Shown here one piece after another: positions 19,372-32,065 of a stretch of 50,505 bases of DNA. Numbering within the stretch: the first letter of the stretch is position 1; the number at the start of each line of letters is the position of its first letter. The stretch comes from Escherichia phage tuinn. The stretch is taken from the sequence record MN850606.1, one strand, 5' to 3'. The notes beneath the pieces were generated by a model. It did no database searches. It worked only from the letters and a program-made list of their open reading frames with translations, and was not told the DNA's origin. The translations under genes and the position numbers were made by a program.

Positions 19372-19465
19372 GGATAGTTATCATGTGGCGCTTGTTTGTT
19401 CTACCGTTACCCGTTATCATCGCTGTTACAGTTATGTACCATATAGTGATGAGATAGGTAGCAGA

Positions 19466-20581
19466 ATGAAAAATGTAAAAATTACAGATGAGCAATTCAA
19501 GATCGAACGGGCGGCGGGTAAGACATATAAACAGATCGCTCAAGAGTACGGAATGAATGTGAGAAGCGTCGAGCGTCGCGCGGCGCGACTTGCAAAGCAA
19601 GGCCAAGTATCCACAATTGGAGCGCCTGGTTTTGGCGTTCATGGTGAGTCAGTAATGACTGACAAAGAAGGCAACATAATCCTAAAGTGGACTAAAACCA
19701 GCAAGGATAAAGAGCAATTAGAAGCATTAATGCGCGCAGCAATGGAGGCATTTAGCGAGGAAGTGCCGCGATTAGATCCGGTTCCATTACAGGAGCGCGA
19801 CTATAACGAAACGCTTTCCTTGTATCCGATCTTTGACATGCACTTAGGCGCTATGGCCCATAAGCACGAATGCGGCGAAAATTGGGATACTGCCACGGCA
19901 GAGCGCGTTATGAATAACTTTATCGACTATGCTTTAATGTGCGCACCGGATAGCGAAAAGGCTGTCATCCTGATTGGTGGCGATATGCTGCATAGCGACG
20001 GCCTGGAGGCGGTTACACCTGCAAGCGGTCACGTACTGGATCAAGATAGTCGATATGCAAAATTGGTTTACGTTGCCATCCGTGCAATGCGACGCGCAAT
20101 CAATAAAATGTTGTTAAAGCATAAACATGTTGAAGTCCAGATCGTAGAGGGCAATCATGACCAATCAGGAATGATTTGGCTGCGCGCAGCAATGGCGGCA
20201 GCATATGAAAACGAGCCGCGCGTTTACGTTGATGTTTCACCTCGCGTTGTGCACCACACGCAATACGGAAAAACTTTCCTTGCGTACCATCACGGGCACA
20301 CAGTGCGTAAACCGGAGACTTTGCTAATGATGTGCGCGTCAGATTGGCGGGAGGACTTCGGAAACTCAAAAACGATGTATGCGCACGTAGGGCACTGGCA
20401 TCACCAGACCGTAACGGAAACGTCGCTTGGCATCGTTGAGGTGCATAGCACCCTGGCGGCAAAAGACGCATACGCCGCGCGAGGTGGCTGGAGATCTCGA
20501 CGCCGTGCGGCGGTTATTATTTACGACAAAGAGCATGGAGAGGTGGGGCGATTTGTTCACTATCCAGAAATGATGAATTGA
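19466..20581 (+). CDS. calcineurin-like metallophosphoesterase
   Basis: Motifs FDMH, GDMLHSDG, GNHD, HHGH, GHWHH; first ATG in frame is 19466. Confidence 0.65.
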   Translation: MKNVKITDEQFKIERAAGKTYKQIAQEYGMNVRSVERRAARLAKQGQVSTIGAPGFGVHGESVMTDKEGNIILKWTKTSKDKEQLEALMRAAMEAFSEEVPRLDPVPLQERDYNETLSLYPIFDMHLGAMAHKHECGENWDTATAERVMNNFIDYALMCAPDSEKAVILIGGDMLHSDGLEAVTPASGHVLDQDSRYAKLVYVAIRAMRRAINKMLLKHKHVEVQIVEGNHDQSGMIWLRAAMAAAYENEPRVYVDVSPRVVHHTQYGKTFLAYHHGHTVRKPETLLMMCASDWREDFGNSKTMYAHVGHWHHQTVTETSLGIVEVHSTLAAKDAYAARGGWRSRRRAAVIIYDKEHGEVGRFVHYPEMMN

Positions 20582-20627
20582 TGAATTTTTATTTAAATCA
20601 ATGACAAATTAAATCAAAAACTTGCAA

Positions 20628-20656
20628 GGGGGCGGCGTTTGTCGCCTCTTTTTTTT
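20628..20656 (+). terminator. rho-independent terminator
   Basis: GC hairpin followed by T8. Confidence 0.5.
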
Positions 20657-20726
20657 GTTTAATTTTTTACCATGTACGTTTATCATGCGGTCAATATATT
20701 GACTTTAATTAATATGGAGAATAAAA

Positions 20727-20942
20727 ATGAAAGATTTTATTAACGCAGCTACCGCTGGATCTGGCGGTTCATCTATCGCAAGCGCCGCTACAGGGCAGTT
20801 AACCATTGCTATTGCCAGCTTTGTTTTAATGGCTGCATTCGGTGCATGGGGCGCTTACCTTCGCTGGCGTGATAGTAAAAAATTCCACGAAGCGATCGAA
20901 AAAGGTGATATTCAAAAAGCTATTGAAATCAGGGGCAAGTAA
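20727..20942 (+). CDS. holin (candidate pinholin)
   Basis: 71-aa protein, hydrophobic core, charged C-terminus; immediately upstream of lysozyme. Confidence 0.55.
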
Positions 20943-21433
20943 TGAGCATAAAGAACAGGGTAGCGGCTGCGGCCTTTGGCGTTGCGGTTGCCTTGACTTC
21001 TCCACTTCTTGAAGAGATCGAAGGGGTAAGATACAAGCCATACAAAGATATTGCTGGAGTATGGACGGTTTGCGCAGGAATCACCGGACCAGATGTTATC
21101 CTGGGGAAAACGTACACTAAAAAAGAGTGTGATGCTTTGTTGGCTAAACATATCCAGGTTGCTAAAAAAGAAGTTGACAAGCAAGTTAAGGTTGACATTC
21201 CTGATAGTATGCGTGCAGCAATGTACTCATTCACTTACAATGCAGGTGTGGGAGCTTTCAGAAATTCAACAATGCTGAAACTCATAAACCAGGGGAAATT
21301 AAACGAGGCTTGCGATCAGCTTTATCGTTGGACTTATTACCATAACCCAAAAACAGGAAAGCGCGAGAAGTCTAAAGGCTTACTTAACAGGCGCAAGGTC
21401 GAATACAAATATTGCACAATGGATCTGAAATGA
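20942..21433 (+). CDS. endolysin, T4-type lysozyme with probable N-terminal SAR segment
   Basis: Catalytic region [26 protein letters not shown]; N-terminal Ala/Gly-rich hydrophobic stretch. Confidence 0.75.
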
Positions 21434-21825
21434 TGAAGAATTTTTTACTTACACCAATCGCAATGGCGGTGATCTTGTCTGGATGTTCAAGCGTTACGCC
21501 ACTGACCGGATTAATCGGCAGTAAGCCGGAAATCACAGCACAGGCTGGATCGGAGAACGTGAAGCAGACAGTTGGCATTACAGCAAAGCAGGACGCCAGC
21601 ACAAAACAGGAAACCACAATAAAGGAATCTGCGGTTGACAAGGTGGACACGTCCAGCAAGAAGGATTTCACAACATCAACCATTCAGGCCAATACCATCA
21701 AGGCAGACAAAATTCATGTCGTGCAGGGTAATAACGGTAGATGGTACGATCCAGTAATCATATGCGTGGTTGTGTTAATTGTGCTGATTTGTCTTTACTG
21801 GAGAGAAAAGAAAAAGGAGGCTTAA
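21430..21825 (+). CDS. unimolecular spanin
   Basis: Lipobox ILSGC at N-terminus plus C-terminal transmembrane segment; ATGA overlap with endolysin. Confidence 0.6.
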
Positions 21826-21840
21826 TGCCTCCTTTATTTT
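21813..21840. terminator. bidirectional terminator
   Basis: AGGAGGC-TTAAT-GCCTCCT hairpin plus T-run. Confidence 0.6.
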
Positions 21841-22064
21841 TATGCGTCGGGCCACATATGAGTTTCGTTTGTTGGCTTGTTCGATTCGTCGTACTGCCTT
21901 ACTTCAATGCTGCAAGTGTCGCCGTACATTTCTGCAATCTTGCGCTCATTTTCAACCGCCGATTGCTCACTCCAGCCTGAATCCTTATCGTAAACTGTCG
22001 GGATTTCAGAAGAAGATCCATTTGCATGATTGTATACGCGAACTACTAAAAACTTGCTGGACAT
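21840..22064 (-). CDS. hypothetical protein
   Basis: ATG 22064 with AAGGA RBS; downstream of promoter-like cassette. Confidence 0.4.
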   Translation of the reverse strand: MSSKFLVVRVYNHANGSSSEIPTVYDKDSGWSEQSAVENERKIAEMYGDTCSIEVRQYDESNKPTNETHMWPDA

Positions 22065-22126
22065 AATTTTTCCTTTTTGGTTGGTTCGTTTCGATGAAAC
22101 AAATATACCCGACACAAGGTCGGGAG

Positions 22127-22146
22127 TTTTAACAAAAAATGCTATT
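22127..22146 (-). promoter_or_regulatory. conserved motif copy
   Basis: TTTTAACAAAAAATGCTATT on +; hairpin, TATATT and CATCGAAACGAAC box follow on minus strand. Confidence 0.6.
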
Positions 22147-22336
22147 CCATACGCTTTACTGTAACCAATAACACACCATCATCATTGCATAAAACGTGTT
22201 CATTGGTGCTAAAAGCGCGCATATCTGAATAAAGCAGCGTAAGTAACGCATGAATAAGATCCTCATGTGATATTGAATTTACGGCGCAGTGCTTCAAGAT
22301 CTTGTCTATTAGCTTTCGCCTGGAACAATTCATCAT
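22142..22336 (-). CDS. hypothetical protein (start uncertain)
   Basis: ORF whose TAG stop lies in the motif; overlaps upstream gene. Confidence 0.3.
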   Translation of the reverse strand: MMNCSRRKLIDKILKHCAVNSISHEDLIHALLTLLYSDMRAFSTNEHVLCNDDGVLLVTVKRME

Positions 22337-22658
22337 CGCCCATCTCCCCTATTCTAGCCATATCCCTGATCCAGTCGTTGCGCATACCATCCAGGCTATA
22401 CAATTCGAATCCGAAAGGCCGCTTTGACGATCCTTTGGACCAGTATTTTCCGCAGACTCCATCTATATAACCAGCCGTCATCATTCTTGCGCAAAATTCC
22501 TTAGATGCAAGGCTGGCGAACATTCTCGGCGTAAGTCCGGCGGCCCGTGCGAGCCGCTCACATTCTCTATGCTGATAGATAAATTTGGCTATGTGCTGCC
22601 TGTTAAACCAATCGTATGACTCACACCATTTATACAGATCAAGCAAAAACATAATCAT
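22263..22658 (-). CDS. hypothetical protein
   Basis: 131-aa ORF overlapping stop of upstream gene. Confidence 0.4.
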   Translation of the reverse strand: MIMFLLDLYKWCESYDWFNRQHIAKFIYQHRECERLARAAGLTPRMFASLASKEFCARMMTAGYIDGVCGKYWSKGSSKRPFGFELYSLDGMRNDWIRDMARIGEMGDDELFQAKANRQDLEALRRKFNIT

Positions 22659-24235
22659 CCCAGCAGTATTGGATTGACAAAAATAACACCATTAATCACA
22701 CAAACATAATTTCTTTCTTCCAGCATTGGCAGTAAGTGCCCTTCTATCCTTTTCATTACGCCAGCCTGACCAACGAAAGGTTTTACCTTTCTCGCTGATT
22801 CGTACAGGGCGCGGATATTCAGAATCCCTTTATTAGCCTTGCCGTGCCTCGTGATCAATTCAATCAATTTACCCATCTCAGCATCATCACCAGCATAACC
22901 AGAAGCATTTGCGGCGCTAATGTATGTTTTGCTCAATTCCTGAAACATGATCAACGCCTCTTGCATTGTTTCCACGTCGATCTCTTTCGACTTCTGCGGG
23001 TATCCGGCAGGATTAAACCAGTTACGGATAACATGCAGGACGGAAGCAAGCCTGATCACCTGTTTATCCATTTTACCCAGCGCACCGCGTAACATTGTAT
23101 GAGAATACTTTCCTCCGTCTGCAAGATGCGGTTCCATATCCTGGCGAGCAATGTTGAGCACTCGCATAGCTGAACGGCTTATTTTCAGCGATATATTTGA
23201 TTCGCTCATGATGTTATGCACCAATTGATAATATTGGGCTTTCAATTCAGAATCCACCGCCTCATAGGTAGAATCACCATTTTCATCAATGAATGAGCGA
23301 CGGCCTAAGAATGATTCCTCTCGGACCAACAAAAAACGCTCACTAACACCGATGCCTCGCGATCCAGCGTCCATGATTCCGCTTATCGTTTCATCCTGGG
23401 CTATGACGCTCATACATCCAAGCGCGCGAAAACTCATATTATTGTCAGCATTAGCACGGGCAATTGATACGTGACCATTATCCCACGCCTTAAGCACTAA
23501 CTCACTGTTAGTCTTCCTTTCGCTATTTGCATAGGTCAAGCCTAACAGACTGTTAATACTTGTTGCTTCATCAGATATTACGGCAAAGTTACCTTGCTTG
23601 TTGTTGATTTTCGCCAAGCCTTCTGGAGTTGTATCTGAAACAGGAAAAGTTATATCACACATTTTTTCCAGCTTTTCCTCCAGATCCTCTTTTTCCTGGT
23701 ATAGAGATTCCATATCAGCGCCGGATCTTTCGCTTTTCATCTCCTTTGCAAGACCTGCCAGCTTTGCCTGTATTTTCTTTCTTTCCTTGCGGCGTTGCTC
23801 GTTGATCTTCTCAACTTCCGCAATCATCGGAGCAATAGCCATGCTGTTGATCGCAGATTTACCAGTTGACGGCGGCTGGCTTGTAACGACGTAAAGCGCA
23901 GTCGGCTGATCGGTTCCGTGATAGTCAACCGTAAAGCGTCCAAGCATAGCGGCAGAAATGCAGCCGATAAAGTGCATGTAAGCAGATGATTCAGGGAATT
24001 GAACGGATCGCGCAATGCTGCGTGATAACTTGCCGACAACATCAATATCATTACCAAGAGAAATAACGGGGTAGCGATCGTGACCGCTATTCACATCCTT
24101 TACGTCGCCCCAAAAGCTGGACGACTGGCGATAGCCGTTAGCCTGAATTGATACGCGAACTGGCGAAAGGTTCTGGCTTTCAGCCATAGCGATTATTTGT
24201 TGTGGAGTTAATTTGTTCGTTTCTAATGAAAACAT
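22655..24235 (-). CDS. P-loop NTPase of unknown function
   Basis: Deviant Walker A SQPPSTGKS, Walker B-like AVISDEAT, charged coiled-coil insert; AGGAG RBS; family not identifiable by eye. Confidence 0.55.
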   Translation of the reverse strand: MFSLETNKLTPQQIIAMAESQNLSPVRVSIQANGYRQSSSFWGDVKDVNSGHDRYPVISLGNDIDVVGKLSRSIARSVQFPESSAYMHFIGCISAAMLGRFTVDYHGTDQPTALYVVTSQPPSTGKSAINSMAIAPMIAEVEKINEQRRKERKKIQAKLAGLAKEMKSERSGADMESLYQEKEDLEEKLEKMCDITFPVSDTTPEGLAKINNKQGNFAVISDEATSINSLLGLTYANSERKTNSELVLKAWDNGHVSIARANADNNMSFRALGCMSVIAQDETISGIMDAGSRGIGVSERFLLVREESFLGRRSFIDENGDSTYEAVDSELKAQYYQLVHNIMSESNISLKISRSAMRVLNIARQDMEPHLADGGKYSHTMLRGALGKMDKQVIRLASVLHVIRNWFNPAGYPQKSKEIDVETMQEALIMFQELSKTYISAANASGYAGDDAEMGKLIELITRHGKANKGILNIRALYESARKVKPFVGQAGVMKRIEGHLLPMLEERNYVCVINGVIFVNPILLG

Positions 24236-24288
24236 TCGTTAGCTTCTCCTTTGTGGGCCGTAAATTTTAACGGCCCAATACTACCCCG

Positions 24289-24309
24289 TTTTGTCAAAAA
24301 GTGCTATTT
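24289..24309 (-). promoter_or_regulatory. conserved motif copy upstream of P-loop gene
   Basis: TTTTGTCAAAAAGTGCTATTT on +; hairpin GGGCCGTTAAAATTTACGGCCC follows. Confidence 0.6.
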
Positions 24310-24525
24310 GATCCGCTCTATTGCAACCAGAAGTCGATCAGGCTGGCGGTCGCTGTAGCATTCTCCTGTAATCCCATCCTTAAACGTAAAGTAAAGCGCT
24401 TTATGATATGAAAAACCAATCAGCCAACCTACCGCCGTTTTTTTGATGGGCCTGACTATATCGCCAGGCTTGAAAGTCTTTGTGGTAGAATGCGTTACTT
24501 TGTAACGGTTTTCACTGTTTATCAC
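24304..24525 (-). CDS. hypothetical protein
   Basis: 73-aa ORF coupled to upstream gene. Confidence 0.35.
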   Translation of the reverse strand: MINSENRYKVTHSTTKTFKPGDIVRPIKKTAVGWLIGFSYHKALYFTFKDGITGECYSDRQPDRLLVAIERIK

Positions 24526-24908
24526 AGATATTTGCCCTCAAACAGATAACAGCCGCCAGCAGAGAATCCGACCTCTTCACGGTACAGGTTCCAGCGGTCG
24601 CCGCACTCATCAAAAACATAACCCGCAACGCTTCCAAGCGGTCGCCCTTTCTCGATCTGGTATCGCTTGCCCTGCTTAAAGTGCTTTTTGCACGGCATGT
24701 TATGATCTACAAACGTGCAAAGAACGGTCTTTGTGTTAATGGCGCGGTAATCATCTCGGTTTGCTGGAAGCCAACGGCTACCCTTAACAAGCGTCTTAAC
24801 CTGGAACTCTTCCACCTCGATCACATCATTACTTCCTGCAATCTTCTGATAAACCGTTTTAAAACGGCCTTTCATCAATACGTTGGTTTCATTACAGATA
24901 ACATTCAT
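24522..24908 (-). CDS. hypothetical protein
   Basis: 128-aa ORF, AAGGAG RBS. Confidence 0.4.
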   Translation of the reverse strand: MNVICNETNVLMKGRFKTVYQKIAGSNDVIEVEEFQVKTLVKGSRWLPANRDDYRAINTKTVLCTFVDHNMPCKKHFKQGKRYQIEKGRPLGSVAGYVFDECGDRWNLYREEVGFSAGGCYLFEGKYL

Positions 24909-24962
24909 GATTAGATCTCCTTTGTTTGTTCGATGTGATTATGCCAGGTTTTTACACCTGGC

Positions 24963-24984
24963 TTTTAACAAAAAGTGCTATTTT
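24963..24984 (-). promoter_or_regulatory. conserved motif copy
   Basis: TTTTAACAAAAAGTGCTATTTT incl. stop of methylase gene; hairpin and ATAATC follow. Confidence 0.6.
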
Positions 24985-25688
24985 GAGTTTGACTCAAAGA
25001 CTGCGCGAGCAAAGCCGCGCGGAGTGAGGGAGCGGATCATCTTTGTGCGCGATGACTTGCCGCCAGTTTTGGCCCAGCCTGGATTATCTTTGTCTTCCTC
25101 TTTCGGCAGGATTAAAGCGCGTGGAGGAATAACAAAGCCGTTGCCAGTCCAGAGGCACGTTTTCTTAAAATAGCGATCACGCGCCGGAATAATATCAGGG
25201 AAGTCGGGATGTTTATCATCTTCCGGCAGATAGCCAGCGTAATCGCACGGATGGAACGTATAATCAGGCTTACGCCATAACGTTGACAACTTGCCAACCG
25301 GATTTTCGATCATGTAAGGAACACCGAAATAATCAGCTATATCAGCCGCGATTCTGCAAGTGTCGGCGGCCTCATCCTGGAACGATGGATTCTCAAGGCG
25401 TTTTTTGGCCCAATGGCGAGATCCGCTATTTGCAAGGTCGGTGCACGGCGGAAATGCCATAATAAAATCAGGATTGCCCCACTCATTATTGATTGCCTTA
25501 ACATAAAAAGCATCGTCAATCCAGACGTTAACGTATTCGATATTCTCATGCTGTATGCGCACTGACTGGTAATCACCGTGATCGCCACCGTCAGCATTAA
25601 AGCAAATGCACTTATAGCCATTATCAGCCCAATCTTTAACGGCTTTACCAGATCCATCAAATAGGGAGAATATTAAACCTTTATACAT
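24978..25688 (-). CDS. compact DNA (cytosine-5) methyltransferase
   Basis: Motif I FSLFDGSG, motif IV FPPC, motif VI ENPVG, C-terminal RSLTPRGFARAVF; only ~236 aa. Confidence 0.65.
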   Translation of the reverse strand: MYKGLIFSLFDGSGKAVKDWADNGYKCICFNADGGDHGDYQSVRIQHENIEYVNVWIDDAFYVKAINNEWGNPDFIMAFPPCTDLANSGSRHWAKKRLENPSFQDEAADTCRIAADIADYFGVPYMIENPVGKLSTLWRKPDYTFHPCDYAGYLPEDDKHPDFPDIIPARDRYFKKTCLWTGNGFVIPPRALILPKEEDKDNPGWAKTGGKSSRTKMIRSLTPRGFARAVFESNSK

Positions 25689-25698
25689 CGTCATTACC

Positions 25699-25923
25699 TC
25701 AAAACGGAAAACATCGCGGACAACCAGGATCGAAATCGCATCCACAATCATTAACAATCATAGTGGGATCTGCAAATATTGCGCTTGATTCAAGATCCAT
25801 ATCCATATCACCTAAAGCCTCATCAAGAGTCTTAATTTTATATGCCACTTCAAGCGCCGCCTCTTTATTTAGTCCGGCATCTTCTGCCATTTGAAGGCGC
25901 TCAAAAAATCCGTCTTGACTCAT
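25699..25923 (-). CDS. small acidic Cys-cluster protein
   Basis: 74 aa, ~16 acidic vs 5 basic residues; C-terminal CGCDFDPGCPRC. Confidence 0.45.
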   Translation of the reverse strand: MSQDGFFERLQMAEDAGLNKEAALEVAYKIKTLDEALGDMDMDLESSAIFADPTMIVNDCGCDFDPGCPRCFPF

Positions 25924-26036
25924 CGCATAATCCCCTTAATAACAGCTAAGATAATAGCCAGGCCAGCAGCAGTAACCAAAAAGCCAACCGCGCAAATAAT
26001 CGAATAAAAAAAGAAATCAATAGCCTTATCTATCAT
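25920..26036 (-). CDS. 38-aa single-pass membrane peptide
   Basis: GAGGTGG RBS; hydrophobic core; ATGA-type overlap with next gene; below track size cut-off. Confidence 0.35.
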   Translation of the reverse strand: MIDKAIDFFFYSIICAVGFLVTAAGLAIILAVIKGIMR

Positions 26037-26078
26037 TTTCCACCTCATTTAAAAGGCGGCAAAACGCCGCCATATTAA

Positions 26079-26306
26079 TTAAAGAGCACGCCAACTTTGA
26101 ATATAGAAAGCGTTTTCTTCCAGTAATTCTTTTACCTGATCTTTATTGTATTTGCGCACCTTACCGCCTGGATGGATACCAATAAGATAGCCGCCTTTGC
26201 CCTCGGTGATAGTGATTTGGCTAATTCCGCAAGACTTATCAAGTTTTACAGCCACGCGGTGATGAGCGTCAATAGTTGCCATAATGTTTAAAACTTTTGC
26301 TTTCAT
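26079..26306 (-). CDS. hypothetical protein
   Basis: 75-aa ORF followed by hairpin. Confidence 0.4.
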   Translation of the reverse strand: MKAKVLNIMATIDAHHRVAVKLDKSCGISQITITEGKGGYLIGIHPGGKVRKYNKDQVKELLEENAFYIQSWRAL

Positions 26307-26414
26307 TTAAATATCCTCAATTGAAATATGAATGGCGTCGTGCTCTTTTTCCGTCGCCGCCGTAATGGTCATTTGCAACCGCCACCATCCAGGCATTTTT
26401 GAAAATAAATAGCC

Positions 26415-26627
26415 TCATTTCTTATTTTTCATCTTAAATTTATGGCCTGGAACACCAGCACCAATATATCCATCGTTGTATTCCATTAAATAAAGGTGAA
26501 GACCATTATCTGAAATTACATGAGGATCTTCTTTGAGATTTCCCATTAGCGGGTATTCTTTTCCGCGCGTAAATCTCCAAGTTGAGTTATAAGTTTCTAC
26601 GCATTTAAGTTTTAATTGCTTTGCCAT
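26415..26627 (-). CDS. hypothetical protein
   Basis: 70-aa ORF coupled to upstream gene. Confidence 0.4.
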   Translation of the reverse strand: MAKQLKLKCVETYNSTWRFTRGKEYPLMGNLKEDPHVISDNGLHLYLMEYNDGYIGAGVPGHKFKMKNKK

Positions 26628-26824
26628 TAGATGATCTCCATGTATGTTTCAAAGCCATTTAACTTGAACAGGCCGTTTTCACATTTGCGAACGTTCCAAG
26701 TTAGCCCTGAGTGGTACGCCTCCATATCATCAAGGTCAATGGTGATTTCAGCACCTTTCTTAAACAAACCTTTTTCGTGAGACTTGTCGCGCTTAACAAC
26801 TTTAACATCAACCTGATTTTCCAT
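26627..26824 (-). CDS. hypothetical protein
   Basis: 65-aa ORF downstream of motif and TATAGT. Confidence 0.4.
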   Translation of the reverse strand: MENQVDVKVVKRDKSHEKGLFKKGAEITIDLDDMEAYHSGLTWNVRKCENGLFKLNGFETYMEII

Positions 26825-26878
26825 CTTTAAATCCTCGTTTGTTGTCGATGCGCTTACTATACCAATCAGCAGCGCATA

Positions 26879-26901
26879 TTTTTTAACAAAAAGTGCTATT
26901 T
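26879..26901 (-). promoter_or_regulatory. conserved motif copy
   Basis: TTTTTTAACAAAAAGTGCTATTT; TATAGT on minus strand at 26856..26861. Confidence 0.6.
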
Positions 26902-27163
26902 AGTCCAGTAATTCGATTTCACGCTCTCCAGTTAACGGATCCACAAGCCAGAATCCGAGCGGTTCGCCGTGAACACCGCCATAGAATCCAAGAGCCGTCA
27001 GATCTTCACCTTTAACGAATACCAGGTTTCCGCTACGGCTTACGTGAGACACGTTAACGATAACCGGAAATGTGCGAGCCTTAAATGCAGGCCGCAGGGC
27101 GTAACACCCGTTATTGAGCAAACGTGCTTTGCGCTTAACTGGAATAGGTGCATTAATTTTCAT
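26900..27163 (-). CDS. hypothetical protein
   Basis: 87-aa ORF with AAGGAG RBS. Confidence 0.4.
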   Translation of the reverse strand: MKINAPIPVKRKARLLNNGCYALRPAFKARTFPVIVNVSHVSRSGNLVFVKGEDLTALGFYGGVHGEPLGFWLVDPLTGEREIELLD

Positions 27164-27175
27164 GGTTATTACTCC

Positions 27176-27388
27176 TTATCGTAAAGATTTAAAGACGTAT
27201 AGTTTATTGCGGTAACTATATATCCGCATTGTTATTTCTCGCAGCGCAATATATTCCTTCCTGTTTTCCGGCAGACTGGCGAGCAACAACAGGCAGTATT
27301 TATAAGCGCGGTCAAGATTCCTTTCCGTGCCCCTGCAATATCCCTTATTGCGCCTGGAGCGGTACAGCCATAACAATTTCTTGAACAT
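27176..27388 (-). CDS. hypothetical basic protein (start inferred)
   Basis: ATG 27388 one nt after upstream stop; fills an otherwise non-coding gap. Confidence 0.3.
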   Translation of the reverse strand: MFKKLLWLYRSRRNKGYCRGTERNLDRAYKYCLLLLASLPENRKEYIALREITMRIYSYRNKLYVFKSLR

Positions 27389-27389
27389 T

Positions 27390-27599
27390 TCAGATACGCC
27401 CATACAGATCGCAAACTTCGTTGATAAAACAGCGTTGAGACTCTTTATCCTGCTTCTCAAACATCGCACGGCACTCATAGCGGTGATTATGCACGATGAC
27501 AACAACCATATTTTCAGGTGCTGACGGGTGACGCGCTGACGCGTCGCAGATTAAAACATCCATACCCATCTCATGTGCTTTCTTGATCACATCCAACAT
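27390..27599 (-). CDS. hypothetical protein
   Basis: ORF, start taken at ATG 27599. Confidence 0.35.
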   Translation of the reverse strand: MLDVIKKAHEMGMDVLICDASARHPSAPENMVVVIVHNHRYECRAMFEKQDKESQRCFINEVCDLYGRI

Positions 27600-27853
27600 T
27601 TTTTCTTCTCCTGCAATAAGCAAACATCATTGATAAAATCAGCACGGCCCTTAATGTTGCTGATGTGGAACGTCTTTTCAGCGTACAGGCCATCACCTTC
27701 AATCACGATCATTACGCGAGTCGGTTTATTCACTGGCGCACACGAAAAGAGTGGTCGCGCCGGAAGAAATTTAGTGGTCACATCCAGGTTAGCCCTGGCG
27801 GCCCTGCAAAACGCCTCCGCCAGATCCAAATCATTTTCGGTAATCACCGCCAT
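27587..27853 (-). CDS. hypothetical protein
   Basis: 88-aa ORF. Confidence 0.4.
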   Translation of the reverse strand: MAVITENDLDLAEAFCRAARANLDVTTKFLPARPLFSCAPVNKPTRVMIVIEGDGLYAEKTFHISNIKGRADFINDVCLLQEKKKCWM

Positions 27854-28125
27854 TACTTCTTGATCTCCTTACTGATAAATTTCAGCACCTGGCGCAAGAA
27901 AACTTCGTTGTTGATAGTCGCTGGCAATTCTTCTTTCACTTCTTGCGGCAGATAGATATTGCCGTGCCAGGTCAAGCAATCGTAGTTGATACGATAAGAG
28001 CAAAGCCACTCGCAATCGTTATCTGCTTCCCAAATGCAGAGTTGCAGAACATCGCCAAAATCTTCAACAGTCAGATCCAGACCGTGACGCTTAGCGAAAT
28101 TGAAAGTGGTTTTGCTGATGTTCAT
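27853..28125 (-). CDS. hypothetical early protein
   Basis: First gene of minus-strand early block; AGGAG RBS. Confidence 0.45.
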   Translation of the reverse strand: MNISKTTFNFAKRHGLDLTVEDFGDVLQLCIWEADNDCEWLCSYRINYDCLTWHGNIYLPQEVKEELPATINNEVFLRQVLKFISKEIKK

Positions 28126-28185
28126 TTACTATCTCCTGAGCGGTTCGTTTCGATGTGTGTAATGTACCCGATCAGGTGGCATGAG

Positions 28186-28206
28186 TTTTAACAAAAAGTG
28201 CTATTT
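28186..28206 (-). promoter_or_regulatory. conserved motif copy, candidate promoter of minus-strand early block
   Basis: TTTTAACAAAAAGTGCTATTT; TACATT and CATCGAAACGAAC box follow on minus strand. Confidence 0.6.
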
Positions 28207-28435
28207 GACGGTTATCGCCAGGATTGCGATCGAAATAATCAAAAGTAATCATTCGTAATCAAATCACGTCAAAATGATGATTGCCTTTGCAAATTTGATG
28301 AGAAAAGTAATCACGTTTAATCATTGGTTGCAGGGGAGATAGTGAAACCTTCCCCTCTTGCCTCACTTTTCCGCCTGGCTGTCAGTGGTTGTTGTCTTTT
28401 GTTCACCCCTGTTACCGATTTCAGGCGGCGTGTTT

Positions 28436-28665
28436 CCGCGCGGTTTTCCGGTGTAGCGAAAACGAAAAAAACAAAAAAATCCCTCTATAATACATTGAAA
28501 ATAAAGATTATTTATTTATATATATCTATAATGTTTTCTTTTTGTTCTCACTGTTACAGTGCTTTTTGTTGGTTATGGTGTGGTTGTGTGTGGGTATATA
28601 TGGATAGTTGCGCGCGCGGCGGATTGCATATGTATATATACTTTTTCCGGCGGATTGCGTTAACA
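28436..28665 (+). repeat. non-coding regulatory region, copy B of duplicated element
   Basis: Shared segments with 7741..8000; A-tracts, two TATAAT boxes, GCGCGCGCG and ATATGTATATATA tracts, CGGCGGATTGC twice. Confidence 0.55.
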
Positions 28666-28759
28666 GCGTGAACATAAAAATAACAGCAGCGAAATCAATA
28701 ACTTGCGCATGATTTTGTAGTTTTTCGATATTGGTAACGTTTTGAATACAACAAAAACA

Positions 28760-28787
28760 TTGACACGCACCAAATAGCTTTTATAAT
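28760..28787 (+). promoter_or_regulatory. near-consensus sigma70 promoter of plus-strand early block
   Basis: TTGACA, 16-nt spacer, TATAAT. Confidence 0.65.
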
Positions 28788-28818
28788 GCGCCAACAGTCA
28801 ACAACTGGAGGAAAGGAA

Positions 28819-29280
28819 ATGGAACAGAAGACCACTAAGGACTATTGCGATTGGCTTCGCGAGCTTGGTCGCCGCCTGGCTAGTGGCGATATTGAAGAGT
28901 ATAAAATGTCACTAATTGACCTGGCCGGAATGTTAAGCGGTGACGACTGCTACAAGATCACGCGCAGTTCATCCTACAGCCGGACCATTATCAACCGCGT
29001 TCCAGAAGTAAGGGCCGCAGGTCGGGTAAGCATCAAGGTAGAGGAAACGGAAGATGATAAATTTTACGTTTTCCGCATGGTCCGCGAATCGAAAAGGAAA
29101 ATCATCACACCCGAAGAATTGCCAGCCATCAAGGCAAGGGCGATCAAAAAGTTTGCCGATCGCATACTGGCAGCAATCCCGAATATCGTTGACCTGGAAG
29201 GGGATAAACTGGCTGGGGCTTGCGAGGGCGTAAGCCGCTACCAGGATATGATCCGCGAAATCATCAAAGAGGAAGAGTAA
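28819..29280 (+). CDS. hypothetical early protein
   Basis: GGAGGAAAGG RBS before ATG 28819. Confidence 0.45.
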   Translation: MEQKTTKDYCDWLRELGRRLASGDIEEYKMSLIDLAGMLSGDDCYKITRSSSYSRTIINRVPEVRAAGRVSIKVEETEDDKFYVFRMVRESKRKIITPEELPAIKARAIKKFADRILAAIPNIVDLEGDKLAGACEGVSRYQDMIREIIKEEE

Positions 29281-29552
29281 TGAAAAAGGCATTAATCAGC
29301 GTTTTGGCGGCAATGGCATTCCTGACCGGATGCAAAGAAGATGGCGCGCATGTTGGCAATGTGCAGATGGCTAACCCTGGCGATGACTACAGCGTAAGGG
29401 AGCTATTCACCGCTGACGGTTGCACCGTTTACCGATTCTATGACGATCGCACTGTTTACTTCACCAACTGTAAGGGCACGACTAGCTGGGAAGTGTCGAA
29501 AAGCAATGGCAAAGGCACGAAGACAGAACATATGACCGTCGAGACAAAATAG
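29280..29552 (+). CDS. small Cys-containing lipoprotein (second candidate exclusion lipoprotein)
   Basis: Signal peptide with lipobox LTGC; three further Cys. Confidence 0.5.
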   Translation: MKKALISVLAAMAFLTGCKEDGAHVGNVQMANPGDDYSVRELFTADGCTVYRFYDDRTVYFTNCKGTTSWEVSKSNGKGTKTEHMTVETK

Positions 29553-29568
29553 CACTTTTTGTTAAAAC
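29547..29568 (+). promoter_or_regulatory. conserved motif copy
   Basis: AAATAGCACTTTTTGTTAAAAC incl. TAG stop. Confidence 0.6.
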
Positions 29569-29646
29569 TCGAAAACGATAACCAGGCATAATAAATCACA
29601 TAGGGCGGCACGGCGTCGCCCACAAAACCAATCAGGAGAAAGCACC

Positions 29647-30540
29647 ATGTTAAAACTTGCTGACATTAAATTCCCGATCACCTTCGAATCTCGCGGCATT
29701 GGTCATTACATTTTTACTGATGAAAAAACATGCCATAAAGTTGATCTTCATAGCTACAAGCGTGCGCCATCAGACATGGAGATTGAACACTTTATTGATG
29801 CGCACAATACGCAGTACAACGCACTTAAAGACTATGGCTATGCAATGCCAGGCTACACATGTTTGCACTACAAGCCATATAAGGGCCAAGTTTTACCAGT
29901 GCGCTCACCGGAACGCGCAGAGATTCCGATGGTTCATATGAAAACCTGCGACTACAAAAAGCTGTGGTGCTTAAGTCTGGACAATATCAAGTATCCTATC
30001 ACGTTCCGCACGACTGGTAAGTCAACGATTCGCTACACATCGCGCGACAATGGCGTTTATAGCGATGGTACGAAACCAGGGTTGAAAGTTGATTTCTTTG
30101 TCAACGGTCACAATAGATACAATCCGCACAACGAAGAGGATAAAGTGTACTACGTGGAAGACATTACAAAACACTTATTTGGAGAAACTCCATTCGGCGG
30201 CGGTAAGACGTCAATTCAAAAAATCATTGGCGATGAGATCCACAAAGCGGCTGCCGAAATGAAAGCGCCTGGAGGCTGGCGTATTGACAAGAGCGCATTT
30301 GCAAATCAAGAAATCGTAACGCAGGGCGCAATTGAAGATATGCCAGTTGCAGCCACTCTAAAAGGAGTCCGGCTTGATGACGGCACCTGGTATGAAGTAA
30401 CGGCTACACCAAAGACGATCGAGATTCATGATGACGTTGTTATCCTTCTGCTTCACTACGGCGTCTATAAAAACCGGACGATTGCAGGTGAGATCAGCAT
30501 TAAGCGCGGAACGATGGTTAAGTGGAAGGTGAAGATTTGA
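29647..30540 (+). CDS. hypothetical protein with internal duplication
   Basis: Two related halves (LADIKFPITFESRG.. / LDNIKYPITFRTTG..). Confidence 0.45.
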   Translation: MLKLADIKFPITFESRGIGHYIFTDEKTCHKVDLHSYKRAPSDMEIEHFIDAHNTQYNALKDYGYAMPGYTCLHYKPYKGQVLPVRSPERAEIPMVHMKTCDYKKLWCLSLDNIKYPITFRTTGKSTIRYTSRDNGVYSDGTKPGLKVDFFVNGHNRYNPHNEEDKVYYVEDITKHLFGETPFGGGKTSIQKIIGDEIHKAAAEMKAPGGWRIDKSAFANQEIVTQGAIEDMPVAATLKGVRLDDGTWYEVTATPKTIEIHDDVVILLLHYGVYKNRTIAGEISIKRGTMVKWKVKI

Positions 30541-30616
30541 GTTTGCTCACTGCGGCGCACGTCGCCGCATGGATCGGATTGTTTTCCTACCTGTTTAGCT
30601 TTTATTGAGGTGAGAG

Positions 30617-30769
30617 ATGGCTACCTGGATTTTGCTGATTCTTATGATTGATGGCGGCGTTGACCATATCGAAATGAATAGCCAGCAATCTTGCATTGAG
30701 GCACGAGAGCAGATCAAGAACAACAACAGGTTTTATGCGTACACTCACACGCTATGTATTAAGAAATAG
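30617..30769 (+). CDS. 50-aa small protein with hydrophobic N-terminus
   Basis: GAGGTGAGAG RBS; stop TAG lies in motif; below track cut-off. Confidence 0.3.
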   Translation: MATWILLILMIDGGVDHIEMNSQQSCIEAREQIKNNNRFYAYTHTLCIKK

Positions 30770-30785
30770 CACTTTTTGTTAAAAC
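30764..30785 (+). promoter_or_regulatory. conserved motif copy
   Basis: Motif followed by TATAAT at 30803..30808. Confidence 0.6.
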
Positions 30786-30838
30786 TCAAATGTGGGGCCA
30801 GGTATAATGGCCTCACTTTCAACGAAGGAGATAAAACG

Positions 30839-31060
30839 ATGTACATTAAAAAGAAGATGAAATGCGTTTCCGTTAACTATGCTTGCTCTGGCATGTTCAA
30901 GCCTGGCGAAATCTATACGGCGCAAAAACTGAAAACATCAACCGGATCTTTTTACGTGAGCAATAGTAAGGGGCATCGCATGTTCCTGAACGGCGGCGAA
31001 GGCACTAAGGTTATGGCACACGCTATGGTAATGGCTGAATTTGAGGAAGTGAAACAATGA
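30839..31060 (+). CDS. hypothetical protein, paralog A of tandem pair
   Basis: AAGGAG RBS; shares PGxxY..FLNGxxGT..AEFEEVK pattern with next gene. Confidence 0.45.
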   Translation: MYIKKKMKCVSVNYACSGMFKPGEIYTAQKLKTSTGSFYVSNSKGHRMFLNGGEGTKVMAHAMVMAEFEEVKQ

Positions 31061-31302
31061 TCATTGAAAACAATTTTCTTTGCGTTAAGAGCAATAGACC
31101 ATTCTTCACGCCTGGCAAGGTGTACCAGGGCAAGAAGGACACAAGAGATGGTCACTCTTATCATGTTCACTGCAACAACGGATACAAGTTTTACCTTAAC
31201 GGCGAGAATGGAACTGAGATCGTTGCGTTTGAAAACGTAGTTGCCGAGTTTGAGCAGATTACAGACGCGGAATTTGAGGAAGTGAAAGATGAAAACAAAT
31301 AA
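31057..31302 (+). CDS. hypothetical protein, paralog B of tandem pair
   Basis: Overlapping start; paralogous to 30839..31060. Confidence 0.45.
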   Translation: MIIENNFLCVKSNRPFFTPGKVYQGKKDTRDGHSYHVHCNNGYKFYLNGENGTEIVAFENVVAEFEQITDAEFEEVKDENK

Positions 31303-31486
31303 GCGCGTCAAGCACAGGTTTACTGATAACCACGGCGACGCGATTGATGTATACAAGTTTGGCGATCGAGTTTTTATTGATGGCACGTTTGAAGGTGGGC
31401 GTAGGCCGGATTTTAGGTCGATACTTACCGTTGACCAAGTGCGCAAGCTGGCAGATAAGTTAAATGATCTGGCAGATGAAATATAA
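31289..31486 (+). CDS. hypothetical protein
   Basis: 65-aa ORF. Confidence 0.35.
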   Translation: MKTNKRVKHRFTDNHGDAIDVYKFGDRVFIDGTFEGGRRPDFRSILTVDQVRKLADKLNDLADEI

Positions 31487-31521
31487 TACAAGCAAATCCA
31501 TTTTAATTGATAGGTTTTATA

Positions 31522-32065
31522 ATGAAAAAAATACACTTTCGAACTATGGGGCAAGAAGTACGAATTAATCACCAGCAAGCGGATTGTTATCGTTGACCTA
31601 GACGGCACACTATCTGACGGATCGCATCGTTTGCATTTGCTGCCAACTGAAAACTTGCACCTTACGGAGTTGTGGAGCGAATTTAACAGGGCCGCCGCCG
31701 GAGATTCACCGATTAAAAGCACGATCGCGGTTATTAACGGTTTGTGGGTGTCGGGATTTGCCATCGTCATCTTGACCGGACGCAGCGACGAAGTGCGCTA
31801 TGAAACATGCAAATGGTTGAATGAGAACGGCGTGAAGTTTGACGAAATCATCATGCGCCGCCAGGAGGACAACCGAAAGGATACGGTTATTAAAGAAGAA
31901 GCCTTGCGCGCTATTGGCCTGGACAATATTGTTTGCGCCTTTGACGATTCTCCGAACGTTGTTAAGCACTTCCGCAGCCTGGGGATCACAACCTATCAGG
32001 TCACGGAATATGACAAGCCGCACGCTCACCTGCAATCTCACGGCGTGGAGGAGTTGCAGAAATGA
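31522..32065 (+). CDS. HAD-superfamily phosphatase (polynucleotide 3'-phosphatase-like); ATG at 31522 is out of frame because of an A7 tract
   Basis: HAD motifs VIVDLDGTLSDG, ILTGRSD, FDDSPN in frame entered at 31526; removing one A from 31525..31531 gives ATG-initiated MKKYTFELWGKKYEL.. Confidence 0.55.

What the first reader, a model, noticed from the sequence alone, without database searches (positions are those of the whole stretch)
24978..26036. Small operon: membrane peptide, acidic Cys-cluster protein and compact C5-cytosine methyltransferase
Three coupled minus-strand genes: a 38-aa membrane peptide (25920..26036), a 74-aa acidic protein with C-terminal CGCDFDPGCPRC (25699..25923) and a ~236-aa protein with C5-methyltransferase motifs I, IV, VI and C-terminal TPRxxARxxF (24978..25688). 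At ~236 aa it is unusually short for a C5 enzyme and has almost no room for a target-recognition domain. With the separate Dam (17897..18622) the phage would carry two orphan methylases, consistent with anti-restriction. The acidic partner could be a DNA mimic or a specificity/regulatory subunit; this is speculative.
Basis: partly seen in the sequence, partly recalled or inferred. Interest (0 to 1): 0.6.

Follow-up and report, generated by a model that had tools for sequence, protein, structure and literature searches.

The report
Known phage orphan cytosine methylase cassette
This is the already described compact "Dcm-like" DNA cytosine-C5 methyltransferase of T1-like (Drexlerviridae) coliphages, preceded by two small genes of unknown function that are not its obligate partners. 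A close relative of the enzyme has been shown to make 5-methylcytosine and to trigger the bacterial retron Ec86 defence.

Summary

The window is a Warwickvirus-like phage (Drexlerviridae, Tempevirinae), 99.3% identical to phage orkinos over this region. The methyltransferase is 100% identical in protein to those of swan01 and the BASEL phage FritzSarasin. It is 89.8% identical to that of KarlJaspers (Bas06). The 711-bp dcm gene of a KarlJaspers strain, K42, was shown experimentally to produce 5mC on retron msDNA and to trigger retron Ec86.

A separate Dam gene is confirmed, so the phage carries two orphan methylases.

The "partner subunit" idea is disfavoured. The acidic protein and the methylase occur independently in other phages, and the K42 enzyme works alone.

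The finding is therefore already known. Two things remain open: the enzyme's exact target sequence, and what the two small proteins do.

The parts
24978..25688 (-). dcm-like gene: a 236-aa orphan DNA cytosine-C5 methyltransferase. Numbered from the Met at 25688, it has the catalytic Cys82 in PPC, Glu128 in ENPV and Lys175/Lys176 in YFKKT.
   Evidence: ORF and sequence. PHROG 757, E = 1e-85. Invariant motifs. AlphaFold2 model with pLDDT 88.5. C5-methyltransferase fold. Protein 100% identical to swan01 and FritzSarasin and 89.8% identical to KarlJaspers, with C82/E128/K175/K176 conserved. The K42 orthologue makes 5mC and triggers retron Ec86.
25697..25700 (-). GAGG Shine-Dalgarno of dcm, overlapping the TGA stop of the acidic-protein gene (TGAGG).
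   Evidence: Conserved in all eight loci compared. In phage K42, two retron-escape mutants carry a C-to-A change 9 bp upstream of the dcm start. By my inference, on the coding strand this is the last G of the GAGG.
25699..25923 (-). Gene for a 74-aa acidic protein (pI 4.05). It has a helical N-terminal part, an acidic linker and a C-terminal CxC-x5-CxxC motif that is a putative zinc knuckle. Function unknown.
   Evidence: PHROG 9323, E = 4e-37, unknown function. Four invariant Cys. 97 clusters, all from Drexlerviridae-size contigs. 449 phage records. The N-terminal 46 aa are homologous to T1 ST6, which lacks the Cys motif. The AlphaFold2 model has low confidence, pLDDT 67.
25920..26036 (-). 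Gene for a 38-aa single-pass membrane peptide. Its stop overlaps the acidic-gene start (ATGA). Function unknown.
   Evidence: Frame, length and hydrophobic character are conserved across Warwickvirus and Hanrivervirus despite roughly half of the residues changing. It is absent from T1 and not found next to the acidic gene in LL5. No Pfam, PHROG or PADLOC match.
26055..26071 (-). Intrinsic-terminator-like hairpin (GGCGGCGTTTTGCCGCC followed by TTTT) between the preceding 75-aa gene and the peptide gene.
   Evidence: Consensus scan. At the same position the Hanrivervirus loci have a different stem sequence, GGGAGG...CCTCCC.
24943..24962 (-). Conserved stem-loop 16 nt after the dcm stop (GCCAGGT gtaaaa ACCTGGC). 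It contains two CCWGG sites and has no T-run. Role unknown.
   Evidence: Sequence and CCWGG hits at 24944 and 24957. It is conserved in six related phages. In Jahat a different stem, GCCCGAC...GTCGGGC, occupies the same place.
17897..18622 (+). Separate orphan Dam-type N6-adenine DNA methyltransferase. It is not part of the cassette and is cited only as the second methylase.
   Evidence: PF05869, E = 3e-61. PHROG 111, E = 2e-87.

Best explanation
The 711-bp gene encodes the compact, orphan 'Dcm-like' DNA cytosine-C5 methyltransferase that is common in enterobacterial phages.

Mechanism. It is a minimal Rossmann-fold enzyme that uses S-adenosylmethionine. It carries the canonical SAM-binding loop (FDGSG), the nucleophilic cysteine (PPC, Cys82) and the ENV-type glutamate (ENPV, Glu128). 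In place of the usual large target-recognition domain it has only a loop of about 40 residues, and its fold is most like the DNMT3 catalytic domain.

Shown. The gene, its motifs, its fold class and its near-identity to characterised and annotated phage proteins are shown here. For an orthologue that is 89.8% identical, the enzyme alone was reported to deposit 5mC in E. coli, and this activity triggers the retron Ec86 (Eco1) abortive-infection system.

Inferred. It probably methylates phage DNA during infection at a short motif, most likely CCWGG. That would protect against EcoRII-type enzymes and the CCWGG subset of CCNGG-type enzymes, complementing the phage Dam at GATC. The cost would be sensitivity to methylation-sensing defences.

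The two upstream genes. The 38-aa membrane peptide and the 74-aa acidic Cys4 protein are translationally packed with dcm. They are best read as independent small accessory genes of the Tempevirinae early region, not as subunits of the enzyme.
For: Identity and context:
- The region is 99.3% identical in nucleotides to phage orkinos, and related phages annotate the gene as dcm, DNA methyltransferase or Dcm-like C5 cytosine methyltransferase.
- The protein is 100% identical to swan01 and FritzSarasin and 89.8% identical to KarlJaspers.

Family:
- PHROG 757 at E = 1e-85.
- 2,059 homologous clusters, all without a Pfam domain and nearly all 227-260 aa.
- 1,194 clusters at 50% identity and 1,498 phage records.
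- One member is fused to a D12-class N6-adenine DNA methyltransferase.

Motifs and fold:
- Invariant motifs.
- Model pLDDT 88.5.

Experiment (bioRxiv 10.1101/2023.08.16.553469):
- All four K42 retron-escape mutants disrupt, or probably disrupt, the 711-bp dcm.
- Expression of Dcm alone is toxic only when Ec86 is present.
- LC-MS shows 5mC on msDNA with wild-type Dcm but not with the C82A/E128A/K175A/K176A mutant.

Orphan status: no nuclease, Vsr or defence-type neighbour.

Motif inference:
- Among all 48 four- and five-base palindrome classes in this genome, CCWGG is the most over-represented: 128 sites against 53 expected from dinucleotides, and a Markov ratio of 1.03.
- GATC is also not avoided: 307 against 187, Markov ratio 1.01.
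- In contrast, CCSGG is the most depleted class (2 against 46), and 21 of 64 six-base palindromes are absent.
- T1, which has no C5 methylase, has 65 CCSGG sites.

Independence of the small genes.
Against: - No Pfam or NCBIfam model matches.
- Sequence-only comparison with solved C5 methyltransferases is marginal (E = 0.15-0.6, covering motifs I-IV only).
- Profile comparison with E. coli Dcm aligns only motif IV, at 1% probability. 'Dcm-like' is therefore a name, not an orthology.
- CCWGG specificity was assumed in the K42 paper by analogy with host Dcm. It was tested only by mutating the msDNA site. Those experiments were run in MG1655, which by my own knowledge, not a tool result, carries a functional host Dcm; the paper did not determine the enzyme's own target.
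- The site-frequency argument is indirect. CCSGG depletion is a lineage trait of Tempevirinae and is not seen in every phage that carries this methylase. CCWGG enrichment could reflect host very-short-patch repair or codon usage.
- BASEL found no correlation between methyltransferase content and restriction resistance.
- No methylation data exist for this particular phage.
Confidence: 0.85

Rival explanations
1. The three genes form one functional module. The acidic Cys4 protein, possibly with the membrane peptide, would be a regulatory or specificity subunit of the methylase. Alternatively it would be a DNA-mimic anti-restriction protein that works together with it.
For: - Tight packing: an ATGA overlap between the peptide and acidic genes, and the acidic-gene stop overlapping the dcm Shine-Dalgarno.
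- The Cys4 form of the acidic protein lies immediately upstream of the methylase across Warwickvirus, Hanrivervirus, Tlsvirus and some Klebsiella Weberviruses.
- It is still there in AV105, where the methylase has been replaced by a 46%-identical allele.
- T1, which lacks the methylase, has only the Cys-less form.
- The protein is strongly acidic, pI 4.05.
Against: - K42 Dcm alone is active in vivo.
- The methylase family is much wider than the acidic family: 1,498 against 449 phage records, and 2,059 against 97 clusters.
- The methylase occurs in the same slot without the acidic protein in Klebsiella phage SegesCirculi.
- It sits next to unrelated genes in Jersey-like, lambdoid and other phages.
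- The N-terminal domain of the acidic protein exists without any methylase in T1.
- No ArdA, Ocr or other family match.
- The model has low confidence.
Confidence: 0.1
2. The enzyme is a genuine DNA C5 methyltransferase, but its target is not simply the inner cytosine of CCWGG. Because its recognition loop is so small, the motif could be shorter or degenerate, or a different cytosine could be methylated.
For: - It is not an orthologue of Dcm.
- Its nearest fold, DNMT3, reads only two bases (the DNMT3 specificity is established knowledge).
- Ec86 is not switched on in MG1655 unless the phage enzyme is added, and empty-vector msDNA has little 5mC. MG1655 carries a functional host Dcm by my own knowledge, so the phage enzyme seems to do something host Dcm does not.
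- The family has at least three loop variants (DNPGW, GYSxQH and the AV105 type), which suggests several specificities.
Against: - Mutating CCTGG in the msDNA abolishes defence.
- CCWGG is the most enriched short palindrome in the genome.
- Six-base palindromes containing CG, CCGG or GGCC are strongly avoided, which argues against broad CpG-, CCGG- or GGCC-type protection.
Confidence: 0.25
3. The protein is not a simple DNA 5mC methylase. It could be an RNA or tRNA m5C methyltransferase, a transferase of another group such as carboxymethyl, or the first step of a cytosine hypermodification pathway.
Against: - LC-MS detected 5mC in DNA for the K42 orthologue.
- No TET/JBP, glycosyltransferase or other modification gene is adjacent. 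The neighbours are small proteins without family matches, and they also occur in the methylase-less T1.
- The top structural matches are DNA enzymes.
Confidence: 0.03

Closest known systems
Dcm of Escherichia phage KarlJaspers (Bas06) and its strain K42, the trigger of retron Ec86/Eco1
   Same: - Same 711-bp gene in the same position, with the same upstream 37-aa peptide and 74-aa acidic genes.
- 86.1% nucleotide and 89.8% protein identity.
- C82, E128, K175 and K176 are all conserved.
   Different: - It belongs to a different genus: Hanrivervirus, against the Warwickvirus-like window.
- About 10% of residues differ, mostly at positions 32-70.
- Nothing has been measured for the window phage itself.
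Dcm-like C5 cytosine methyltransferase of Escherichia phages FritzSarasin (Bas04), swan01 and orkinos (Warwickvirus)
   Same: The protein is 100% identical from the Met at 25688, and the gene order is the same.
   Different: Some records annotate a 257-aa form from an upstream TTG that overlaps the acidic gene. That start is not supported by conservation.
DNMT3A/DNMT3B catalytic domain (eukaryotic de novo DNA C5 methyltransferases)
   Same: - It is the only solved family with any sequence signal, across motifs I-IV.
- Both have a short target-recognition region.
   Different: - Only 14-19% identity.
- The phage protein is about 50 residues shorter than the crystallised DNMT3 domains.
- It has KK where the K42 authors' superposition on DNMT3A places the substrate-binding residues.
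- It has no partner such as DNMT3L and no regulatory domains.
E. coli Dcm (M.EcoKDcm) and EcoRII-type CCWGG methyltransferases, Pfam PF00145
   Same: The chemistry is the same: 5mC made through a Pro-Cys nucleophile. The target proposed in the literature is also the same, CCWGG.
   Different: - 472 aa against 236 aa.
- No detectable sequence relationship beyond motif IV.
- No PF00145 match.
- No linked vsr gene.
T1 ST6 (69-aa acidic protein of phage T1), compared with the acidic protein
   Same: It is 63% identical over the first 46 residues and occupies the same syntenic slot, between the ST5-like and ST7-like genes.
   Different: T1 ST6 ends in an acidic tail without any cysteine. T1 has neither the methylase nor the membrane peptide.

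Membership tests
DNA cytosine-C5 methyltransferases (SAM-dependent, Pro-Cys nucleophile) | Motif I, the SAM-binding loop FxGxG | tested here: met
   FDGSG is present. D13, G14, S15 and G16 are invariant in 32 homologues, and the loop aligns to LFDG of DNMT3B.
DNA cytosine-C5 methyltransferases (SAM-dependent, Pro-Cys nucleophile) | Motif IV, Pro-Cys with the catalytic cysteine | tested here: met
   FPPCTDL is present, with P83 and C84 invariant (this is C82 when numbered from the 25688 start). It aligns to PCNDL of DNMT3B and PCQ of E. coli Dcm. C82A was one of four substitutions in the inactive K42 mutant.
DNA cytosine-C5 methyltransferases (SAM-dependent, Pro-Cys nucleophile) | Motif VI, ENV, the glutamate that contacts the target cytosine | tested here: met
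   ENPV is present, with E130, N131, P132 and V133 invariant. The assignment to ENV comes from position and from the K42 authors' superposition on DNMT3A. I had no residue-level structural alignment.
DNA cytosine-C5 methyltransferases (SAM-dependent, Pro-Cys nucleophile) | Overall fold matches solved C5 methyltransferases better than other Rossmann methyltransferases | tested here: met
   [not shown]
DNA cytosine-C5 methyltransferases (SAM-dependent, Pro-Cys nucleophile) | Match to the curated family models (Pfam PF00145 DNA_methylase, or NCBIfam) | tested here: not met
   No Pfam or NCBIfam family matches at E <= 1. None of the listed homologues carries a precomputed Pfam domain.
DNA cytosine-C5 methyltransferases (SAM-dependent, Pro-Cys nucleophile) | A sizeable variable target-recognition domain between motifs VIII and IX | tested here: not met
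   Only about 40 residues lie between KKT (177-179) and SLTPRG (222-227). Only about 20 of them vary, and model confidence is lower there.
DNA cytosine-C5 methyltransferases (SAM-dependent, Pro-Cys nucleophile) | The product is 5-methylcytosine in DNA | not testable with these tools
   This was reported by LC-MS for the K42 orthologue, which is inferred to be close to the 89.8%-identical KarlJaspers protein. It has not been measured for this phage.
Dcm / EcoRII-type CCWGG methyltransferases | Sequence orthology to E. coli Dcm | tested here: not met
   hhalign of the family profile against Dcm gives 1% probability, with 24 columns aligned around motif IV only.
Dcm / EcoRII-type CCWGG methyltransferases | CCWGG target specificity | tested here: inconclusive
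   CCWGG is not avoided and is the most enriched short palindrome, while CCSGG is depleted about tenfold on the Markov expectation and more than twentyfold on the dinucleotide expectation. The literature test is indirect.
Restriction-modification system (methylase with a cognate nuclease) | An adjacent restriction endonuclease or specificity gene | tested here: not met
   The neighbours are small proteins with no Pfam or PADLOC match, plus a DUF3987 putative helicase. The methylase is therefore an orphan.
PHROG 757 (phage DNA methyltransferase family) | A full-length profile match | tested here: met
   E = 1.1e-85, covering residues 2-237 against profile positions 11-219 of 247.
DNA-mimic anti-restriction proteins (Ocr, ArdA), considered for the acidic protein | A family match, or an elongated fold with acidic surfaces that imitates DNA | tested here: not met
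   No Pfam, NCBIfam or PADLOC match. The only matches are PHROGs of unknown function. The model is low-confidence, with three short helices and a coil. The acidity itself is real, pI 4.05.
Zinc knuckle or Cys4 metal-binding motif, considered for the acidic protein | Four conserved metal-ligand cysteines with CxC...CxxC spacing | tested here: met
   C60, C62, C68 and C71 are invariant in 26 homologues. Metal binding itself cannot be tested here.

The most novel reading that the evidence does not exclude
The Cys4 form of the small acidic protein, and in Warwickvirus and Hanrivervirus also the membrane peptide, might be a lineage-specific accessory of the compact methylase. It might tune the enzyme's timing or target, or shield the phage from defences that sense methylation, such as retron Ec86.

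Two observations leave this open. The Cys4 C-terminus is seen wherever the acidic gene abuts a methylase gene, even after that gene has been swapped for another allele (AV105). The methylase-less T1 carries a Cys-less version.

Separately, the enzyme's true recognition sequence may differ from the assumed CCWGG.
Probability: 0.12. Interest if true: 0.5.

Novelty: already known. Interest (0 to 1): 0.2.

Why it matters
The cassette itself is not new. The protein is identical to annotated proteins in several deposited phage genomes. A close orthologue has a published activity (5mC formation) and a published biological consequence (triggering retron Ec86/Eco1).

What remains useful:
- The family is very common: about 3% of deposited phage genomes (1,498 of 50,697 records) and more than 2,000 clusters at 90% identity. 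Pfam and NCBIfam still do not detect it, so routine annotation misses it.
- It is one of the smallest C5 DNA methyltransferase architectures, with a DNMT3-like fold. Its real sequence specificity has not been measured directly.
- The window phage shows a striking contrast between unavoided GATC and CCWGG sites and strongly avoided CCSGG and six-base palindromes. This gives a cheap, testable picture of how methylation and site avoidance share the work of evading restriction.

Tried and rejected
- Pfam, NCBIfam and PADLOC scans of all three proteins and their neighbours found nothing for the cassette.
- Searches of PDB sequences with the single protein and with the family profile gave only marginal DNMT3B hits (E 0.15-0.6).
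- Profile comparison with E. coli Dcm showed no meaningful relationship, so I rejected filing the protein as a Dcm orthologue.
- The AlphaFold2 model of the acidic protein was too uncertain (pLDDT 67, pTM 0.35), so I ran no fold search on it.
- I looked for domain fusions among longer family members. Only one was informative, a fusion to a D12 N6-adenine methyltransferase. Nine others had no Pfam domain in their extensions.
- I looked for a promoter inside the cassette. The consensus scan gave no more sites than shuffled sequence (5 against 5.5 expected), so I make no promoter claim.
- The published journal version of the Ec86 paper is not in the searchable library, so I relied on the preprint.
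- I considered a hypermodification pathway and rejected it, because there are no TET or glycosyltransferase neighbours.
- CCSGG depletion turned out to be a Tempevirinae lineage trait rather than a correlate of carrying the methylase. I therefore use it only as supporting context.
Full report
**What is there**

The window carries three closely packed minus-strand ORFs at the stated positions:
- A 38-aa hydrophobic peptide at 25920..26036. A 42-aa reading from an upstream ATG at 26048 is possible but not conserved.
- A 74-aa acidic protein at 25699..25923.
- A 236-aa protein at 24978..25688.

The peptide stop overlaps the acidic-gene start (ATGA). The acidic-gene stop overlaps the Shine-Dalgarno of the third gene (TGAGG, then 8 nt, then ATG). 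A terminator-like hairpin with a T-run precedes the peptide gene at 26055..26071. A conserved stem-loop follows the third gene at 24943..24962.

**Where the window comes from**

Region 24800-26300 is 99.3% identical to Escherichia phage orkinos. It is 98-99% identical to swan01, tonn, tonnikala, tiwna and the BASEL phage FritzSarasin. All are Drexlerviridae, subfamily Tempevirinae, genus Warwickvirus. In those records the third gene is annotated dcm, DNA methyltransferase or Dcm-like C5 cytosine methyltransferase.

**The methyltransferase**

Curated libraries do not recognise the protein:
- Pfam and NCBIfam give no match.
- PADLOC gives none.
- PDB sequence searches give only marginal DNMT3B alignments over motifs I-IV (E 0.15-0.6).

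PHROGs does recognise it: PHROG 757, "DNA methyltransferase", E = 1e-85.

The family is large and uniformly compact:
- 2,059 clusters at 90% identity, with no precomputed Pfam domain among the listed hits, which are nearly all 227-260 aa.
- 1,194 clusters at 50% identity with E <= 1e-3, mostly 200-260 aa.
- 1,498 of 50,697 deposited phage genomes. These include Drexlerviridae of E. coli and Klebsiella, 45-kb siphoviruses such as rolling and Sloth, Kagunavirus, FV3-type and phAPEC8-type myoviruses of about 136-165 kb, and an Arthrobacter phage.
- It also occurs in a lambdoid prophage region of E. coli, next to Dam, NinG and RusA genes.

An alignment of 32 members that are 54-82% identical to the window protein shows these invariant features: FDGSG (motif I), PPC (motif IV), ENPV (motif VI), a YxKKT segment, and a C-terminal IRSLTPRG-A-A.

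An AlphaFold2 model built on that alignment is confident (pLDDT 88.5, pTM 0.88). Its best structural matches are DNA cytosine-C5 methyltransferases:
- Foldseek: DNMT3A/3B at E about 1e-6.

One family member is fused to a D12-class N6-adenine DNA methyltransferase.

The "unusually short" remark is correct. E. coli Dcm is 472 aa, M.HhaI 327 aa and M.HaeIII 328 aa. Only about 40 residues separate the KKT segment from the SLTPRG segment, and only about 20 of those vary.

Despite the name, the protein is not an orthologue of host Dcm. A profile comparison aligns 24 columns around motif IV, at 1% probability.

**Published experiments on an orthologue**

A preprint on retron Ec86 (bioRxiv 10.1101/2023.08.16.553469) used phage K42, whose genome is 95.4% identical to KarlJaspers (Bas06).
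- All four Ec86-escape mutants disrupt, or probably disrupt, a 711-bp dcm gene. One is a 2,262-bp deletion, one a frameshift, and two are a base change 9 bp upstream of the start.
- Dcm expressed alone is toxic only in cells that carry Ec86.
- LC-MS finds 5mC on msDNA with wild-type Dcm but not with a C82A/E128A/K175A/K176A mutant.

The KarlJaspers gene is 86.1% identical in nucleotides and 89.8% identical in protein to the window gene. Numbered from the Met at 25688, the window protein has C82, E128, K175 and K176.

The -9 position falls on the last G of the conserved GAGG, which independently supports the 25688 start; this is my inference.

[quoted passage not shown] A genome paper on a related Hanrivervirus also lists the Dam plus cytosine methylase pair. 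The enzyme, and the observation of two orphan methylases, are therefore already known.

**The second methylase**

The ORF at 17897..18622 is a Dam-family enzyme (PF05869, E = 3e-61; PHROG 111). Neither methylase has a nuclease neighbour, so both are orphans.

**The two small genes**

The acidic protein:
- pI 4.05.
- PHROG 9323, unknown function.
- Four invariant cysteines in NDCxCxFDxxCxRCFPF.
- Its model is of low confidence (pLDDT 67): three short N-terminal helices, an acidic linker and a C-terminal knuckle. I did not use it for fold comparison.

Its distribution is much narrower than that of the methylase: 97 clusters, all at least 68% identical, and 449 phage records.

The slot between the ST5-like gene (window 26079..26306) and the ST7-like gene (window 24522..24908) exists in four states:

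| Phage or group | Content of the slot |
|---|---|
| T1 | Only a 69-aa homologue of the acidic protein's N-terminal 46 residues (63% identity), with an acidic tail instead of cysteines. No methylase and no peptide. |
| Klebsiella phage SegesCirculi | The methylase, with no acidic protein. |
| Warwickvirus, Hanrivervirus, Tlsvirus | The Cys4 acidic protein plus the methylase. The peptide is present only in the first two genera. |
| AV105 | An identical acidic protein, then an HNH endonuclease, then a 46%-identical methylase allele with PDC in place of PPC and a different loop. |

In more distant phages the genes upstream of the methylase are unrelated. The K42 enzyme is also active on its own. 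Together this makes an obligate subunit role unlikely.

A weaker, lineage-specific link cannot be excluded. The Cys4 form is repeatedly found abutting a methylase gene.

The peptide is a real gene by conservation of frame, length, hydrophobicity and start-stop overlap, even though about half of its residues change. Its function is unknown.

**Indirect evidence on the target**

The K42 paper assumed CCWGG by analogy with host Dcm. It showed only that mutating the CCTGG in the msDNA abolishes defence. Those experiments were run in MG1655. By my own knowledge this strain has a functional host Dcm, yet empty-vector msDNA had little 5mC. The phage enzyme's own target is therefore not rigorously defined.

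In the window genome I counted all 48 four- and five-base palindrome classes:

| Site | Observed | Expected from dinucleotides | Markov ratio | Rank |
|---|---|---|---|---|
| CCWGG | 128 | 53 | 1.03 | most enriched |
| GATC | 307 | 187 | 1.01 | third most enriched |
| CCSGG | 2 | 46 | 0.10 (20 expected) | most depleted |

In addition, 21 of 64 six-base palindromes are absent. Examples are AAGCTT (0 against 21), TCCGGA (0 against 22), GATATC (0 against 14) and GGCGCC (0 against 15.5).

T1 has Dam but no C5 methylase. It has 65 CCSGG sites, 83 CCWGG sites and only 11 absent six-base palindromes.

So the two motifs that match the phage's two methylases are the ones this lineage does not avoid. 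This fits CCWGG protection, and it argues against a broad CpG-, CCGG- or GGCC-type specificity.

The argument is indirect:
- CCSGG depletion tracks the Tempevirinae lineage rather than presence of the methylase.
- CCWGG enrichment could also come from host very-short-patch repair or from codon usage.

**Verdict**

The core interpretation is supported: a compact orphan C5 methylase and a second orphan Dam. The speculative partner role for the acidic protein is disfavoured.

The methylase is already known, both as an annotated gene and, through a close orthologue, as an experimentally characterised retron trigger. Three items are still open: the true recognition sequence of this minimal enzyme, the lack of any Pfam or NCBIfam model for a family found in about 3% of phage genomes, and the functions of the Cys4 acidic protein and the membrane peptide.

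Noticed in passing
whole window (1..50505), compared with T1 (L013): The genome shows extreme avoidance of restriction-type palindromes. 21 of 64 six-base palindromes are absent, and CCSGG has 2 sites against 46 expected from dinucleotides (20 by Markov). GATC (307 sites) and CCWGG (128 sites) are not avoided and rank among the most enriched short palindromes. T1, which lacks the C5 methylase, has 65 CCSGG sites. In partial loci, CCSGG depletion tracks the Tempevirinae lineage.
   Followed up: partly
L013 (phage T1) 47118..47327, against window 25699..25923: T1 ST6 (69 aa) is homologous to the N-terminal 46 residues of the acidic protein (63% identity, E = 3e-13). It ends in an acidic, cysteine-free tail. 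It sits between the ST5-like and ST7-like genes, with no methylase and no peptide. This suggests the dcm gene is an insertion into a conserved backbone slot.
   Followed up: yes
L017 (Escherichia phage AV105) 2201..3637: In this Warwickvirus the same slot holds an identical acidic protein, then an HNH_3 endonuclease (175 aa), then a 228-aa methylase allele. That allele is only 46% identical, has PDC in place of PPC and has a different recognition loop. The last 59 nt are identical to the window gene, which points to cassette exchange by recombination, possibly driven by a homing endonuclease.
   Followed up: partly
window 24943..24962 (minus strand): A conserved stem-loop, GCCAGGT-gtaaaa-ACCTGGC, lies 16 nt after the dcm stop and has no T-run. 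Its two arms are themselves CCWGG sites. In phage Jahat a different stem, GCCCGAC...GTCGGGC, occupies the same place, so the structure rather than the sequence appears to be conserved.
   Followed up: no
window 26055..26071 (minus strand), with L002 and L004-L006: A terminator-like hairpin with a T-run sits just upstream of the peptide gene. The Hanrivervirus loci keep a hairpin there with a different stem, GGGAGG...CCTCCC. The cassette therefore sits downstream of a conserved, probably leaky, terminator. I found no convincing promoter.
   Followed up: partly
GenBank records MG0656xx, labelled 'Campylobacter phage' (for example A119, A143, C5): Between 20 and 39 records labelled as Campylobacter jejuni phages carry sequence close to coliphages: 20 match this region at the nucleotide level (60-80% or better), and others match only at the protein level (45.8-86.5% identity for A143, C5 and A119). 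They include this methylase and the acidic protein. They are probably mislabelled or contaminated.
   Followed up: no
protein P0336 (563 aa): This is a natural fusion of the compact C5 methylase domain (N-terminal) with a D12-class N6-adenine DNA methyltransferase (PF02086, residues 303-546).
   Followed up: no
L006 (Shigella phage pSf-1) 2001..2710: The methylase gene appears frameshifted. The match is 710 nt, the annotated CDS is 651 nt, and the translated identity drops to 57%. This is either a sequencing error or a natural pseudogene.
   Followed up: no
L014 (phage LL5) about 1313..1390: LL5 has a gap of about 195 nt between the acidic gene and the methylase gene, and no membrane peptide. 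The gap contains a possible 25-aa cysteine-rich ORF, MTPIEKICCPRHGGSGDKTTCPFCK.
   Followed up: no
L008/L009 (pig-gut contigs carrying a 227-aa family member): There is only one GATC in 6.7 kb, against 19 CCSGG and 9 CCWGG. The methylase sits between a DNA polymerase A gene and an SNF2 helicase gene. This is a different avoidance profile from the window phage.
   Followed up: no
bioRxiv 10.1101/2023.08.16.553469, Results: The CCWGG specificity of the phage enzyme was assumed from host Dcm. The msDNA methylation and toxicity experiments were done in MG1655, where empty-vector msDNA showed little 5mC. By my own knowledge MG1655 carries a functional host Dcm. That is hard to reconcile with the phage enzyme and host Dcm having the same target, unless host Dcm cannot reach the msDNA.
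   Followed up: partly
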